Positions 48 through 4,283 of a DNA stretch of 4,283 nucleotides are shown here, piece after piece. The notes beneath the pieces are model-generated. The model was not told the DNA's origin. It did not search any database and was given only the letters and a program-made list of their open reading frames with translations. Position 1 is the stretch's first letter, and each line of letters starts with the position of its first letter. Made by a program: the position numbers and the translations under genes. This DNA is from a virus (lineage: Duplodnaviria > Heunggongvirae > Uroviricota > Caudoviricetes). The DNA lies in the IMG/VR virus record IMGVR_UViG_2537561979_000002, positions 1-4,283 of that record; one strand, given 5' to 3'.

Positions 48-704
48 ATGGGGAAACTGAGATACCGTAACCTCGTTCCCGCTGAAGGAATGAGTAACAT
101 GTTTGTCAATATCCGGCTGGCAACCAGCCCGCAGGCAGTGAAGCGCATTGCCGCGCATGTGGGTAAGGAGCTGCGGCGCGTGAACCAGAGCCGGATGCGC
201 GCCCAGAAAGCGCCGGACGGTTCGGTGTGGACACGCCGTAAACGCCGTATATCACGCCTTCAGGAGCGCATCAGCTTTATCTGGCAAAACCAGAACCGCA
301 CCCTGAAAAACTGGCATCACGGTTCAGGAAAATACGGCCAGACCATCACCGGCTGGGATGAAGACCGGAGCGGCATACGTACCTTTTACCGGAGTGATAT
401 CCTCCGTTTCCTTGAAATCAGGACACGCCGCATCAACCGTGACACCACAAAAACGGTGCCGATGTTTGCGAAGCTGCGCACGGCCCGTTATCTGAAAGTG
501 AAGGCGGACGCATCAGGTGTGACGGTGGGCTACAGCGGCGTGGCGGCACGCATTGCCCGCGTTCACCAGTTCGGGGAGCGCGACCGGGTGGCCGCAGGGA
601 TGTATACGGATTATCCGGCCCGTGAACTTCTTGGAATAACACCGGCAGATGAACGACTTATTCAGCGTATCATTATGGACAATATCGCGAGGGCTGTGGC
701 ATGA
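48..704 (+). CDS. S: Phage virion morphogenesis / tail completion protein (P2 gpS-like)
   Basis: ORF of 218 aa in frame 3. The C-terminal part (ARIARVHQFGERDRV...YPARELLGITPADERLIQRIIMDNI) resembles the conserved C-terminus of the phage virion morphogenesis family (P2 S / Mu G type) as I recall it. GGAG at 38-41 lies 6 nt upstream of ATG 48. Its stop overlaps the V start (ATGA at 701-704). The position immediately upstream of V matches P2 synteny. The start is uncertain: in-frame ATGs also occur at 90 and 99, and the product is longer than the roughly 150 aa I remember for this family. Confidence 0.7.
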   Translation: MGKLRYRNLVPAEGMSNMFVNIRLATSPQAVKRIAAHVGKELRRVNQSRMRAQKAPDGSVWTRRKRRISRLQERISFIWQNQNRTLKNWHHGSGKYGQTITGWDEDRSGIRTFYRSDILRFLEIRTRRINRDTTKTVPMFAKLRTARYLKVKADASGVTVGYSGVAARIARVHQFGERDRVAAGMYTDYPARELLGITPADERLIQRIIMDNIARAVA

Positions 705-1282
705 ACGCGGAATTAATGCGCCTTATCAGCAACATCATCAGAACCGGCGTGATTTTCGACGTGAACCCGCAGACCTGGGAGGTCCGGGTGCGCAGTGGCG
801 GACTGGAGACAGGCTGGCTTCGCTGGAGCACCGCGCGGGCGGGCGCGTTCAGTGTCTGGGTGCCGCCAGCCACCGGTGAACAGGTGGCGTTCGTCTGTAT
901 CGGTGGTAATCCCGAAACCGCGATAATCATCGGCAGCCTCTGGAGCGATGATATCCCGGCACCGGGCAGCACACTGAAGGAAATCATCATGACAGCACCG
1001 GACGGTGCGGTATTCCGCTACGATGCAGACGCCGGTGCACTGGAGGTTAAGGGGATTAAAACAGCCAGCATTCAGGCCGACACGCGCATCACCCTGGACA
1101 CGTCGGAGGTGGTGTGTACCCGCAAACTTATCACCGCCACCCTGGAGGTGCAGAACGGCGGCGAGATGCGCGGCAGCATATCCCACAGCGGCGGCAGCCT
1201 GACATCCAACGGTATCACCGTTCATACGCACACCCACGGTGGCGTCAGGACGGGCCCGGGCACCACGGGAGGCCCGCAATGA
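701..1282 (+). CDS. V: Baseplate assembly protein V (baseplate hub/spike, P2 gpV-like)
   Basis: ORF of 193 aa. The N-terminus (IRTGVIFDVNPQTWEVRVRSGGLETGWLRW) fits the gpV OB-fold spike family pattern. GAGGG at 689-693 lies 7 nt upstream of ATG 701. The start overlaps the S stop and the stop overlaps the W start (ATGA at 1279-1282), indicating translational coupling. Size is close to P2 gpV. Confidence 0.88.
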   Translation: MNAELMRLISNIIRTGVIFDVNPQTWEVRVRSGGLETGWLRWSTARAGAFSVWVPPATGEQVAFVCIGGNPETAIIIGSLWSDDIPAPGSTLKEIIMTAPDGAVFRYDADAGALEVKGIKTASIQADTRITLDTSEVVCTRKLITATLEVQNGGEMRGSISHSGGSLTSNGITVHTHTHGGVRTGPGTTGGPQ

Positions 1283-1629
1283 CCGCTGTTTACAGGGGGA
1301 TGAACCCGCAGGGAACCGGCACGCTGAGCGACAGCGAACACCTGAAAAACAGCGTGCGGGATATCCTGACCACACCGCCAGGCAGCCGGGTGATGCGCCG
1401 CGAATACGGCAGCCTGTTACCGGACCTCATCGACGAGCCCATGAACGACACCACGCGTTTACAGTGCATGAGCGCCACGGTGACTGCGCTGGCGCGCCAT
1501 GAACCCCGTATAGCACTGCAGAACGTCGATGTGAACTGGCGGGCTGGCGGACGCGCCGTGGTGACGTTATCCGGCATCATCACCGAAACCATGCAGAACA
1601 TCACATTCAGTATCACCCTGAGGGAGTAA
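1279..1629 (+). CDS. W: Baseplate wedge protein W (GPW/gp25 family)
   Basis: The track ORF 1114..1629 is trimmed to internal ATG 1279 (MTAVYRGMNPQ...), giving 116 aa. This start is preceded by GGGAGG at 1267-1272 with 6 nt spacing and overlaps the V stop codon. The sequence (SVRDILTTPPGSRVMRREYGSLLPDLIDEP) fits the GPW/gp25 signature, and the size matches P2 gpW. Confidence 0.88.
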   Translation: MTAVYRGMNPQGTGTLSDSEHLKNSVRDILTTPPGSRVMRREYGSLLPDLIDEPMNDTTRLQCMSATVTALARHEPRIALQNVDVNWRAGGRAVVTLSGIITETMQNITFSITLRE

Positions 1630-1632
1630 ATC

Positions 1633-2529
1633 ATGCCTTCCGTTGACCTGTCACAGTTACCGGAACCGGCCATCATCGCGCAGCCGGATTTTGAGTCCAT
1701 CCTGGCAGACATTAAAACCATGATGGTGAGCTCCTTCCCGGAAGAATACCGCGCCGCCGTCACCCGTGCCCTTACTCTGGAATCCGAGCCATTGAACATC
1801 ATTTCCCAGGCCATGGCCTTTCGTGAAATGCTGCTTCGCCAGCGCATCAATGAAGCCGCCCGCGCCTGCATGCTCAGCCACAGCCGGGGCAGTGACCTGG
1901 ACAATCTGGCCGCCAACAACAACACCCACCGCCTGGTCATTCATCCGGCCACTGATACCACGGAAGCAGTGATGGAAAGCGACACATCGCTGCGTCTGCG
2001 TGCCCAGTCAGCCTGGGACGGCCTGAGTGTGGCCGGACCGTCCGGCGCGTATGAGTATTTTGCCCGGAGCGCAAGCGGTCTTGTCCGTGATGCGCGCGCC
2101 ATCAGCCCGTCACCGGCCACAGTCACCGTCTCCATCCTGTCAGCAGACGGTGACGGCACCGCCGGTGAGGCGTTACTGAACACGGTGCGCACCGCCCTGA
2201 ATGCCGAGAACGTGCGCCCGGTTGCCGACCGCCTGACTGTGCAGAGTGCTACCATCGTGAACTGGGTAATGGAAGCGAAGCTGTATTTTTATCCAGGGCC
2301 GGAGTCTGAACCCATGCTTGCGGCCGCTGACGCCGCTTTCCGTGCATGGCTGGCAGACCAGGGCCGTATCGGTCAGGACGTGGCCCTGTCAGCCATCACT
2401 GCAGCGCTGCATGTTCACGGTGTCCAGCGCGTTGAGGTCATAAAACCCACGCAGAACATCACCATCAGTGACACTCAGGCAGCCAGATGTACCACATTCA
2501 GCATCAGCGAAGGAGGACGCAATGAGTGA
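1633..2529 (+). CDS. J: Baseplate assembly protein J (P2 gpJ-like)
   Basis: ORF of 298 aa, starting 3 nt after the W stop. AGGGAG at 1621-1626 precedes ATG 1633. Size and position are as in P2 gpJ. The stop TGA at 2527-2529 overlaps the I start (ATGAGTGA). Confidence 0.88.
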   Translation: MPSVDLSQLPEPAIIAQPDFESILADIKTMMVSSFPEEYRAAVTRALTLESEPLNIISQAMAFREMLLRQRINEAARACMLSHSRGSDLDNLAANNNTHRLVIHPATDTTEAVMESDTSLRLRAQSAWDGLSVAGPSGAYEYFARSASGLVRDARAISPSPATVTVSILSADGDGTAGEALLNTVRTALNAENVRPVADRLTVQSATIVNWVMEAKLYFYPGPESEPMLAAADAAFRAWLADQGRIGQDVALSAITAALHVHGVQRVEVIKPTQNITISDTQAARCTTFSISEGGRNE

Positions 2530-3084
2530 CAGGAAAAAACAGACAGCGCACAGCACAGTACATCACTGCTTCCACCGTCCGCAGGGCCATTCATGCGCGC
2601 CACAGAGGCGACAGGAGTACGCATCAGTACCATACCGGTGGACGCCGACACCCTGTGGTCGCCGGACCGCTGCCCTGCTCACCTCCTGCCCTACCTTGCA
2701 TGGGCATGTTCCGTTGACAGCTGGGACCGCAACTGGCCGGAAGAGACCAGGCGACAGGTGATTCGGGACGCATGGATGATACATCGCCACAAAGGGACCA
2801 TCAGTGCACTCCGCCGCATCGTTGAACCACTGGGCTACCTCATCCGTGTATCAGAATGGTGGGAGTTTGACGGCTCGCCCGGGACCTTCACCATTGAGAT
2901 TGGCACACTTGAAACCGGAGTAAGTGAAGAGCTGCATGAAGAAATGGAGCGTCTGATTGCCGATGCGCGCCCCGTCAGCCGCCACCTCGTGGGGCTTAGT
3001 ATCATCCAGGAAATACACGGTGCCATTTACGCCGCTGCCGCAGGTTACGACGGCGACATCATCACCATTTACCCGGAAGACTGA
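2522..3084 (+). CDS. I: Phage tail protein I (P2 gpI-like), reading frame interrupted near the N-terminus (frameshift; possible pseudogene or sequencing error)
   Basis: AGGAGG at 2511-2516 lies 5 nt upstream of ATG 2522 (frame 2), which overlaps the J stop. The gpI-like body, including the conserved N-proximal SLLPP motif at about 2563-2577 and the later LWSPDRCPAHLLPYLAWACSVD region, is in frame 1 and runs to the stop at 3082-3084. Frame 1 has no start codon between the J stop and ATG 2593. The frame-2 continuation from 2522 to 2761 is R/P/H-rich and not protein-like. Adding one A to the A6 run at 2534-2539 would give a continuous protein of about 187 aa (MSDRKKTDSAQHSTSLLPPSAGPF...). Confidence 0.8.
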
Positions 3085-3087
3085 ACC

Positions 3088-4283
3088 ATGAGCACGAGAA
3101 AATTCAGAACCCTTATCACCGACATCGGGCTGGCAAAGCTGGCCGCAACAACGGCGCCTGGCGGTAGACCTGTACGCCTTACGCACATGGCTGTAGGGGA
3201 CGGCAATGGAGAGCTTCGTCAGCCGCAGAAAAACCAGACATCGCTTTACAATGAGGTTTGGCGCCAGTCTGTCAACCGCGTCTTCACCGACCCGGAGAAC
3301 CCGAACCGCCTCATCGCCGAACTGGTCATTCCTCCTGAAACCGGCGGATTCTGGGTGCGTGAAATTGGTGTGTTTGATGATACAGGTACAATGATTGCAG
3401 TAGGAAATACCGCTGAAAGTTACAAGCCCACCAGAGAGGAAGGTTCAGGGCGGGCGCAGATATTCCGTGCAGTAATCACCGTCACCTCCGACGCCGTGGT
3501 GGAACTGGTCATGGACACAACAACAATTCTGCCGACCACGGACTACATTGATGAGAAAATAGCGGAACACGCACGTTCCCGTAACCACCCTGACGCGACA
3601 CTGACAGAAAAAGGATTCACCCAACTGAGCAGCGCCACAAACAGCACCTCTGAAACACTGGCCGCCACACCGAAGGCCGTCAAGGCTGCATATGACCTTG
3701 CAGCCGGTAAAGCACCCGCCAGCCACACCCACCCGTGGAATCAGATAACAGGTGTGCCATCAGCCTCGCTGACGGCAAAAGGCACCGTACAGCTGAGCAG
3801 TGCCACAAACAGTGAGTCAGAGACTGAGGCCGCCACCCCCAAAGCGGTTAAAGCCTTACACGATATGGCTGACGAGCAAGTATACAGGACAGGATGCAAC
3901 CACCGGACGCAAAGGCATCGTACAGCTAAGCAGCGCCACAAACAGCAATTCCGAAACGCTGGCGGCCACACCAAAAGCTGTTAAAGCTGCGTATGACCTT
4001 GCCAACAGCAAAGCCTCGGCAGCCCACACTCATCGCTGGGCTCAGATCACAGACGCCCCTGTTTTTTCGTCTGTTGCCCGCGTCATCATGGGTAAACAAA
4101 GCATAAAAGATATTCTTGATTACTTTGGTTTAGGAGAAGGCTCGACGCTGCCAGTTGGCGTACCCGTTCCGTGGCCTTCGTCAAGACCACCTGAGGGGTG
4201 GTTACAGTGCAACGGTGCCGCATTCACGCGTACAAAATACCCAAAACTGGCGGTGGCCTACCCTGACCTCAGGCTACCAGATT
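3088..4283 (+). CDS. H: Tail fibre protein (P2 gpH-like N-terminus), partial at the 3' end of the window and frame-interrupted near 3871-3877
   Basis: Starts at ATG 3088, 3 nt after the I stop, with GGAAG at 3075-3079. The N-terminal roughly 170 aa (FRTLITDIGLAKLAATTAPGG...ELVIPPETGGFWVREIGVFDDTGTMIAVGNTAESYKP...) closely resemble the P2 H baseplate-attachment domain as I recall it. This is followed by repeats of the motif KGxVQLSSATNSxSETxAATPKAVKA. The frame-1 ORF ends at 3984 after a non-protein-like tail, while frame 2 is open from 3797 to the window end and encodes the third repeat plus a collar-like region (EGWLQCNGAAFTRTKYPKLAVAYPDLRLPD). The gene therefore continues past 4283 in frame 2. 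Confidence 0.85.
3604..4050 (+). repeat. Three imperfect direct repeats within the tail fibre gene (cores about 3611-3702, 3778-3870, 3911-4003)
   Basis: Each core encodes KG(F/T/I)(T/V)QLSSATNSxSETxAATPKAVKAxxDxA. Copies 1 and 3 share a 19-nt identical run (agcagcgccacaaacagca) and are each followed by an HTHxWxQIT motif. Copy 2 is more diverged and lacks that extension. Confidence 0.8.

What the first reader, a model, noticed from the sequence alone, without database searches (positions are those of the whole stretch)
3604..4050. Three-copy imperfect repeat array in the tail fibre shaft
The SSATNSxSETxAATPKAVK module occurs three times, at both nucleotide and protein level, with spacings of about 167 and 133 bp. 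Copies 1 and 3 also share a trailing HTHxWxQIT motif. Such intragenic repeats are substrates for homologous recombination and slipped-strand events, and could change fibre length or swap distal receptor-binding segments between phages. The frameshift in the previous finding sits exactly at the junction between copies 2 and 3, so a repeat-mediated rearrangement may have created it.
Basis: seen in the sequence. Interest (0 to 1): 0.4.

Follow-up and report, generated by a model that had tools for sequence, protein, structure and literature searches.

The report
Known tail-fibre repeat, three-unit allele
The three repeats are copies of a long-known phage tail-fibre building block (Pfam PF03406) in a P2-like prophage of E. 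coli; related strains carry 3 to 10 copies, and the nearby frameshift is one extra base, most likely a draft-assembly error rather than a product of repeat rearrangement.

Summary
Three imperfect copies start at 3610, 3778 and 3911 (70-81% nucleotide identity over 77 nt; spacing 168 and 133). Copies 1 and 3 share 142 nt, including HTHxWxQIT. This is far above chance (65/77 matches; shuffles reach at most 41).

All three are Pfam PF03406 "phage tail fibre repeat" modules. They lie between a P2 gpH-type N-terminal anchor (PF12571) and a Collar domain (PF07484). Two unit types alternate: A (56 aa, with HxH) and B (44 aa). The window is A-B-A'.

Fibres with the same N-terminus show at least 17 unit architectures with 3-10 copies. 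Every fully classified full-length fibre measures 514 + 44a + 56b + 130c aa. So the idea that recombination changes copy number is supported.

The frameshift idea is not. An independent metagenome contig carries the same A-B-A' gene intact. It differs from the window by 4 substitutions in 4220 nt and lacks only the extra base at 3868/3869.

The window is one contig of a gapped draft scaffold (GCA_000190975.1). That scaffold has about ten other single-base indels, six of them run-length changes. The frameshift is therefore probably a sequencing error.

Ordinary and already known.

The parts
3088..4283 (+). 5' 1196 nt of a P2 gpH-like tail fibre gene. The reading frame shifts by +1 at 3868/3869, and the gene runs off the contig end.
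   Evidence: ORF and translations. Pfam PF12571, PF03406 and PF07484. RefSeq relatives are annotated 'tail fiber protein'.
3097..3540 (+). N-terminal baseplate-attachment domain (PF12571, residues 4-151)
   Evidence: E 7.3e-51, 172.5 bits against a cut-off of 23. P2 gpH has the same domain.
3613..3780 (+). Unit A1: long PF03406 module, 56 aa / 168 nt. GFTQLSSATNSTSETLAATPKAVKAAYDLAAGKAPASHTHPWNQITGVPSASLTAK. The HxH motif is at 3724-3732.
3781..3913 (+). Unit B: short PF03406 module, 44 aa / 132 nt plus the one extra base. GTVQLSSATNSESETEAATPKAVKALHDM|[L/V]TSKYTGQDATTGRK.
3868..3869 (+). The single extra base that causes the frameshift: ATGGCTG. Intact relatives have ATGGTG or ATGCTG.
3914..4051 (+). 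Unit A': terminal long PF03406 module, read in frame +2. GIVQLSSATNSNSETLAATPKAVKAAYDLANSKASAAHTHRWAQIT. The HxH motif is at 4025-4033.
   Evidence: (E 8.5e-21)
3676..3749 (+). Interval that contains the in-register crossover separating this 3-unit allele from the common 744-aa (A-B-C-A-B-A') allele. Within it the two arrays of L001 are identical.
   Evidence: Left of 3676 the window matches L001 array 1 only. From 3750 onward it carries the array-2 bases and is identical to array 2, apart from the extra base.
4157..4282 (+). Start of the Collar domain (PF07484) in the distal part of the fibre
   Evidence: E 3.3e-10. Sequence match to the T4 gp37 tip, 2XGF residues 27-73.
3885..4283 (+). Stretch repeated exactly at the start of the next contig of the source scaffold, after a 682-N gap (an unmerged contig overlap)

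Best explanation
The three copies are PF03406 'phage tail fibre repeat' modules. They form the shaft of a trimeric P2 gpH-type tail fibre, between the baseplate-anchoring N-terminal domain and the Collar/receptor-binding distal part.

Two unit types alternate. The long unit A (56 aa) ends in an HxH motif, which in other trimeric fibres places six histidines around a buried iron ion on the three-fold axis. The short unit B (44 aa) has no HxH.

Because the units share 70-100% identical DNA, in-register homologous recombination or replication slippage adds, removes and reorders whole units without breaking the frame. This can happen within one gene or between co-resident P2-like prophages. The result is an allelic series of fibre lengths, and the window's A-B-A' is its shortest member seen.

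The frameshift is a separate event: one extra base in the tail of unit B. It is most likely a base-calling or consensus error in a low-quality draft contig.

Shown: the repeat, its family membership, unit-wise variation among relatives, the intact twin allele, and the draft status of the source. Inferred: the trimeric shaft role, metal binding by HxH, the recombination mechanism, and that the extra base is an error.
For: Repeat and statistics.

Family: PF03406 at 126.4 bits (2 copies) and 73.7 bits (1 copy) against a cut-off of 22, flanked by PF12571 and PF07484.

Synteny: S-V-W-J-I-H, followed by a tail fibre assembly gene.

The same module occurs in P2 gpH (2 copies) and in Mu gpS residues 110-166. 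tblastn finds it in 390 phage records, including the P1 S gene, where GenBank M81956.1 already annotates 'repeated element a0/a1/b1/b2'.

Unit-wise variation: 5, 6, 6, 6, 7, 8 and 10 Pfam copies in seven intact E. coli relatives whose upstream DNA is about 99% identical. Among 121 cluster representatives there are at least 17 architectures. All lengths of the fully classified full-length ones equal 514 + 44a + 56b + 130c.

Intact twin: P0121/L013 is A-B-A', 514 aa. It has 4 substitutions in 4220 nt and lacks both of the window's indels.

Draft status: the window is a contig flanked by N-gaps. Contig ends overlap by 496, 399 and 257 nt. About ten distinct single-base indels separate roughly 19 kb of the scaffold from an intact relative, and six of them are run-length changes (A7 to A6 twice, G4 to G3, G to GG, GG to GGG, CC to C).

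The frameshift is private. It is absent from 5,426 complete E. coli genomes and from exact-pattern scans of genome, metagenome and viral contigs. The truncated 298-aa product was found only in the source assembly.

HxH iron sites in trimeric fibres, and repeats as a way of adjusting fibre length: PMC6116203.
Against: No complete E. coli genome in the collection has the 3-unit architecture. The only independent witness is a single short-read metagenome contig.

The extra base is not a classic long-homopolymer error. It is G to GG relative to the L-type allele, or +C relative to the V-type allele.

It sits exactly at a G/C polymorphic site between B-unit variants, and the window looks like the sum of both. 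That hints at mixed templates rather than a simple miscall.

The sequencing platform of the source assembly could not be looked up. The structure of the module, its trimerisation and metal binding were not tested here.
Confidence: 0.78

Rival explanations
1. The 3-unit array is an assembly collapse. On this view the source strain really carries a longer fibre, for example the common 744-aa A-B-C-A-B-A'. The assembler jumped from the first A-B pair to the second through the near-identical stretch of about 300 nt. The 'GC' at 3868-3869 would be a consensus of reads from a V-type (ATGGTG) and an L-type (ATGCTG) B unit.
For: - The window matches array 1 of L001 left of 3676 and array 2 right of 3750, with 0 mismatches over 3870-4283.
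- The extra base falls exactly on the G/C site that distinguishes the two B units of L001.
- A 682-N gap follows the contig. If L001-like sequence were missing, that gap estimate would be off by about 390 nt, which fits the errors of the other gaps. If the contigs simply overlap, it is off by about 1080 nt (my arithmetic).
- The 744-aa allele is by far the commonest: 71 of 121 representatives, one of them seen on 444 contigs.
- No complete genome has 3 units.
Against: - An independent MEGAHIT k141 contig from another sample (L013) has the same architecture with 1 mismatch in the gene and an intact frame.
- The exact matches shared by the two L001 arrays are at most 80 nt, shorter than k = 141 (spacing of the mismatch sites). 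A de Bruijn assembler would also normally break at such a repeat rather than skip a loop. The arrays of the L013 strain itself are unknown.
- Overlapping, unmerged contig ends occur at three of the four joins in this scaffold, including two that lie outside the tail-fibre repeat array.
- At the other discriminating sites (3750, 3831, 3928, 3958) the window shows clean array-2 bases, not mixtures.
Confidence: 0.15
2. The frameshift is real. On this view the prophage is decaying and the fibre gene is a pseudogene, inactivated by a spontaneous one-base insertion unrelated to repeat recombination.
For: - Several structural genes in the scaffold are split: capsid, gpI, fibre and the tape-measure region.
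- One indel (G to GG at L011 14291/14570) is present in both overlapping contig ends.
- Related RefSeq prophages also carry a pseudogenised tape-measure gene.
Against: - The ratio is about 10 indels to 55 substitutions, in otherwise 99.1-99.8% identical essential genes.
- Six of the indels are run-length changes, which is the signature of sequencing error rather than neutral decay.
- The nearest relative differs by 4 substitutions and is intact in both genes.
- The truncated product occurs in no other assembly.
Confidence: 0.2
3. One reading: an imprecise repeat-mediated rearrangement (unequal crossover or slipped-strand event between units) deleted units and left the extra base at its junction.
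For: The frameshift lies between the cores of copies 2 and 3, at a site that differs between B-unit variants.
Against: - L013 has identical unit junctions and flanking bases with an intact frame, so the rearrangement, if any, preceded the extra base and did not need it.
- The inferred crossover interval is 3676-3749.
- Every fully classified full-length allele surveyed differs by exact in-frame units. Recombination here is therefore precise.
Confidence: 0.03

Closest known systems
Pfam PF03406 Phage_fiber_2 (phage tail fibre repeat), as in P2 gpH, Mu gpS/gp49, the constant part of P1 S, lambda Stf and Stx-phage fibres
   Same: All three window copies match the full 42-position model well above threshold. 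The same GxxQLSSxTxSxSETxAATPKAVK core is found in P2 gpH, P1 S, lambda-type and Stx phages and in Mu gpS 110-166. It occurs in tandem within fibre shafts.
   Different: P2 gpH has 2 copies, and only one copy of Mu gpS matched in the PDB sequence search. This prophage lineage has 3-10 copies in two alternating unit lengths (56 and 44 aa), with an optional 130-aa inserted unit.
'Repeated elements a0/a1/b1/b2' of the phage P1 tail fibre gene S (GenBank M81956.1). From my own knowledge, not read here: the motif-rearrangement view of tail fibre evolution in Sandmeier 1994, Mol Microbiol 12:343, and Haggard-Ljungquist et al. 1992, J Bacteriol 174:1462.
   Same: Intragenic direct repeats in the constant shaft part of a myovirus fibre gene, overlapping the same peptide motif. 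Element a1 is 132 nt, the same length as unit B.
   Different: P1 joins its repeats to an invertible variable segment (cix sites). No invertase or inversion site is seen here; a tail fibre assembly gene follows directly.
HxH iron-binding sites in trimeric fibres and spikes (R1/R2 pyocin fibre shaft, T4 gp37 tip, P2 gpV apex)
   Same: Units A1 and A' each carry an H-T-H motif in a fibre shaft context. The window's gpV also has HTHTH. PMC6116203 describes octahedral Fe sites formed by three HxH motifs, and repeats as a means of adjusting fibre length.
   Different: No sequence homology between the PF03406 units and the pyocin shaft was detected. Metal binding here is inference only.
Intact E. 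coli prophage tail fibres, RefSeq WP_103723425.1 (744 aa), WP_097481392.1 (626 aa) and WP_254539326.1 (670 aa), and metagenomic P0121 (514 aa)
   Same: Same N-terminus, same unit types, same C-terminus. Flanking genes are 99-99.9% identical in DNA for L001, L002 and L013.
   Different: Unit number and order differ. The window alone has the extra base.

Membership tests
Pfam PF03406 Phage_fiber_2 repeat | Match to the family HMM above the curated gathering score | tested here: met
   126.4 bits (two stretches) and 73.7 bits (one stretch) against a cut-off of 22. Model positions 1-40/42 and 1-42/42.
Pfam PF03406 Phage_fiber_2 repeat | Occurs as tandem copies inside phage tail fibre proteins | tested here: met
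   Three copies lie between PF12571 and PF07484. Relatives have 5-10 copies and P2 gpH has 2.
P2 gpH-type tail fibre | N-terminal PF12571 domain shared with P2 gpH | tested here: met
   E 7.3e-51. P2 gpH: E 3.2e-57.
P2 gpH-type tail fibre | Gene order V-W-J-I-H, followed by a tail fibre assembly (gpG-like) gene | tested here: met
   Window ORFs and Pfam. The Caudo_TAP gene lies directly downstream in the source scaffold and in relatives. P2 has the same order W-J-I-H-G.
P2 gpH-type tail fibre | Forms a homotrimeric fibre attached to the baseplate wedge | not testable with these tools
   Inferred from Mu gp49 and pyocin fibre structures.
HxH metal-binding fibre shaft | Three symmetry-related HxH motifs coordinate a buried Fe ion | not testable with these tools
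   HTH is present at 3724-3732 and 4025-4033. No structure was made.
Phase-variable (contingency) frameshift | Frameshift lies in a simple-sequence tract whose length varies among strains | tested here: not met
   No tandem or simple repeat is present. The extra base is found in no other genome or contig.
Programmed ribosomal frameshift | Two-frame arrangement conserved among relatives | tested here: not met
   All 121 related proteins and 8 fetched loci read through in one frame.
Invertible tail-fibre segment (P1 Cin / Mu Gin type) | Invertase gene and inverted crossover sites flank alternative C-terminal segments | tested here: not met
   No significant inverted repeats in the gene: 16-nt arms at 75% only. 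The neighbours are an assembly chaperone and tail genes, with no recombinase.

The most novel reading that the evidence does not exclude
The unit-number series is an adaptive length-tuning system. It comprises at least 17 architectures with 3-10 PF03406 modules, all on the same N-terminal anchor and most on the same C-terminal tip. On this reading, P2-like prophages of E. coli match fibre reach to the thickness of the host's O-antigen or capsule layer, and the 3-unit allele seen here is the minimal functional fibre. A weaker variant: the GCTG state at 3868-3869 is a real frameshift intermediate between the L-type and V-type B units.
Probability: 0.2. Interest if true: 0.4.

Novelty: already known. 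Interest (0 to 1): 0.12.

Why it matters
It matters little as a discovery. The repeat is a curated Pfam family and near-identical proteins are already annotated as tail fibre proteins. Repeat-driven length change in fibres is an accepted idea.

There are two practical points:
- These fibre genes are hard to assemble. Apparent frameshifts or copy numbers in draft assemblies should not be interpreted without reads.
- The clean lattice of allele lengths (514 + 44a + 56b + 130c aa) on a constant anchor, and mostly a constant tip, is a tidy natural series. It could be used to test how shaft length affects adsorption, or to engineer fibres and tailocins of defined length.

Tried and rejected
- Tandem Repeats Finder found nothing. 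The units are not strict head-to-tail copies.
- Exact-pattern scans for the frameshift junction in genome, metagenome and viral contig collections all returned zero.
- Literature searches for the assembly accession and for the primary descriptions gave nothing readable. Haggard-Ljungquist 1992 (PMC206541) is not held, and Sandmeier 1994 appeared only in reference lists.
- I considered a 454 flow-space averaging explanation for 'GGC': a 50:50 mix of ATGGTG and ATGCTG reads. I could not verify the sequencing platform, the other discriminating sites show no mixing, and the explanation needs a near-exact 50:50 mix. It is kept only as a sub-hypothesis of the collapse rival.
- I considered programmed frameshifting, phase variation and an invertible segment, and rejected all three (see the membership tests).
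- I did not run structure prediction. A monomer model of a trimeric fibre built from a shallow, near-identical alignment would not be informative.
- In one search, my mapping of window positions up to 3867 onto L001 array 2 was off by one, so that part of the table is invalid. One search gives the correct comparison.

Full report
**What the window is.** The 4283-nt window encodes a P2-type baseplate and fibre block on the + strand:
- a tail-completion/virion morphogenesis gene (48-704);
- gpV spike (701-1282);
- gpW (1279-1629);
- gpJ (1633-2529);
- gpI (ending at 3084);
- the 5' 1196 nt of a gpH-like tail fibre gene, starting at 3088.

Pfam assigns PF04865 to gpJ and PF09684 to gpI. In the fibre it assigns PF12571 (N-terminal, E 7e-51), PF03406 (three stretches) and PF07484 Collar.

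**Checking the observation.** The repeat finder gives one family of three 77-nt copies at 3610, 3778 and 3911, with 70% and 81% identity to the middle copy and spacing of 168 and 133 nt. Copies 1 and 3 extend to 142 nt at 75% identity.

The best 77-nt self-match is 65/77. One hundred shuffles gave a mean of 37.8 and a maximum of 41. Differences between copies are concentrated at third codon positions (23/36, 15/23, 11/15). Protein identity (81-88%) exceeds nucleotide identity (69-80%). The copies inside this allele are therefore old and held by selection on the peptide, not fresh duplications.

HTHPWNQIT (3724-3750) and HTHRWAQIT (4025-4051) are present as described. Copy 3 is read in the +2 frame.

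**What the repeat is.** Each copy is a full-length match to Pfam PF03406 'Phage tail fibre repeat' (126.4 and 73.7 bits; cut-off 22). Parsing the relatives shows two unit types:
- unit A, 56 aa / 168 nt, ending ...KAxxxHTHxWxQITGVPSASLTAK;
- unit B, 44 aa / 132 nt, ending ...ALHDM[V/L]TSKYTGQDATTGRK.

The window is A-B-A'. The spacing of 133 rather than 132 nt is due to the extra base.

tblastn finds the same module in 390 phage records. These include P2 gpH, lambda-type and Stx-phage fibres, and the P1 S gene, whose GenBank record M81956.1 already annotates 'repeated element a0, a1, b1, b2' over the matching stretch. Element a1 is 132 nt. P2 gpH has two copies. Mu gpS, present in PDB entries 5YVQ, 8JU3 and 9KI1, matches over residues 110-166. 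This is a known, curated repeat family.

**Relatives and copy number.** Megablast against 5,426 complete E. coli genomes finds the gene's 5' part at 96-99% identity in about 27 genomes. No record covers more than 81% of the query in one place.

Seven distinct intact relatives were fetched (L001/L003, L002, L004-L008). They share the flanking genes and the fibre N-terminus, but their fibre genes are 1881-2706 nt long. They hold 5, 6, 6, 6, 7, 8 and 10 PF03406 copies.

One protein search returned 120 close relatives. With P0121 added, the 121 cluster representatives fall into 21 unit strings, at least 17 of them fully classified, with 3 to 9 parsed units (A, B and a 130-aa unit C that carries an inserted domain). 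All of the fully classified full-length ones have lengths equal to 514 + 44a + 56b + 130c aa. The commonest is the 744-aa A-B-C-A-B-A', with 71 representatives, one of them seen on 444 contigs.

So copy number and unit order vary freely and always in register. This is what homologous recombination or slippage between units predicts. The list is ranked by bit score, which favours long arrays, so short alleles are under-sampled.

**The frameshift.** Compared with L001, L002 and L013, the window has exactly two indels:
- a missing A in an A7 run at 2533/2534, inside gpI;
- an extra base at 3868/3869, reading ATGGCTGACG.

Intact relatives read ATGGTGACG (Met-Val) or ATGCTGACG (Met-Leu) at this site.

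Against the 744-aa allele (L001), the window matches the first array up to 3675. From 3676 to 4283 it is identical to the second array apart from the extra base. It differs from the first array at 3750, 3831, 3928, 3958 and beyond. The in-frame 690-nt difference therefore has its crossover in 3676-3749, roughly 120 nt upstream of the frameshift.

An exact look-up then showed that the repaired V-type protein (514 aa, A-B-A') exists in the 15-billion-protein collection (P0121). Its contig is a MEGAHIT k141 contig of ENA sample ERZ27280595 (L013). It aligns to window 63-4283 with 4 substitutions in 4220 nt and lacks both indels.

The same unit junctions therefore exist with an intact frame. The frameshift is a single added base, not the scar of a rearrangement.

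**Where the window comes from.** The truncated 298-aa product is recorded on only one contig: NCBI GCA_000190975.1, scaffold GL872128.1. The window is one contig of that scaffold. It is bounded by an 80-N gap on the left and a 682-N gap on the right.

The next contig begins with an exact copy of window 3885-4283. The previous contig ends with a copy of the window's first ~496 nt. A third join overlaps by 257 nt. Unmerged overlapping contig ends are thus a general habit of this assembly.

Over about 19 kb the scaffold differs from an intact relative (L012) by 55 substitutions and about ten distinct single-base indels. Six of the indels are run-length changes: A7 to A6 twice, G4 to G3, G to GG, GG to GGG, CC to C. 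They split the capsid, gpI, fibre and tape-measure genes.

This pattern is typical of sequencing error in an early draft. I could not verify the platform. I put the probability that the 3868/3869 base is an error at about 0.7-0.75.

**A residual oddity.** The site shows three states in an otherwise identical ~600-nt context: GTG, CTG and the window's GCTG, which looks like both alleles added together (note).

That, the 682-N gap, and the absence of a 3-unit allele from complete genomes keep alive a rival: the contig may be a collapse of a longer array, with mixed reads at the polymorphic site.

Against it stand three points. An independent assembly (L013) has the identical 3-unit gene. The window shows clean array-2 bases at the other discriminating sites. 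Contig overlaps also occur elsewhere in the scaffold, away from the repeat array. I give the collapse reading about 0.15.

**How it most likely works.** This is inference from named families. The fibre is a homotrimer. Its N-terminal domain docks on the baseplate wedge, as resolved for Mu gp49 (PMC11915804). The PF03406 units build a shaft of adjustable length. The Collar domain and distal tip, folded with the downstream assembly chaperone, bind the receptor.

The HxH motifs of the A units probably line the three-fold axis and bind a metal ion, as in the pyocin fibre shaft, the T4 gp37 tip and the P2 gpV apex. The same paper notes that repeating structures let fibres adjust their length by duplicating motifs (PMC6116203). 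None of the structural statements was tested here.

**Verdict.** The feature is real but already known, and the window holds the shortest observed allele of a recombining unit series. The proposed link between the repeats and the frameshift is not supported. The frameshift is probably a draft-sequence error. Interest is low.

Noticed in passing
window 2528-2534 (gpI, which should start at 2522): Second frameshift. The A-run is A6 where all relatives have A7, so gpI (187 aa in relatives) appears truncated to an ORF starting at 2593. It has the same error-like character as the fibre frameshift.
   Followed up: partly
L011 (GCA_000190975.1 scaffold GL872128.1) 6834-6913, 11197-11878, 14345-14364: Contig ends on both sides of three N-gaps duplicate each other (496, 399 and 257 nt), so the scaffold contains artificial duplications. 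For example, two partial Phage_tail_S genes and two partial fibre genes are called.
   Followed up: yes
relatives L001, L005, L006, L008 (e.g. L001 fibre aa 276-405): [quoted passage not shown] It is present in most long alleles and absent from the window. Its nature (a knob domain?) was not examined.
   Followed up: no
database names of relatives (e.g. P0030, P0037, P0043): Many of these tail fibre proteins are named 'short-chain fatty acid transporter' in NCBI or UniRef records. This is an evident annotation error that has propagated.
   Followed up: no
window 1219-1236 (gpV C-terminus...GITVHTHTHGGV...): An HxHxH motif in the spike apex, matching the iron-binding apex described for P2 gpV. 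Pfam Apex gives a weak hit.
   Followed up: no
window 3867-3870 compared with L001, L004 and L013: Three states (GTG, CTG, GCTG) occur at one site within otherwise identical ~600 nt. The window's state equals both alleles combined. This is unexplained without the reads (note).
   Followed up: partly
L012 21142-23337 and L003 8033-8354: The otherwise intact RefSeq relatives have their tape-measure gene annotated as an incomplete pseudogene. This prophage lineage may therefore be partly defective even in finished genomes.
   Followed up: no
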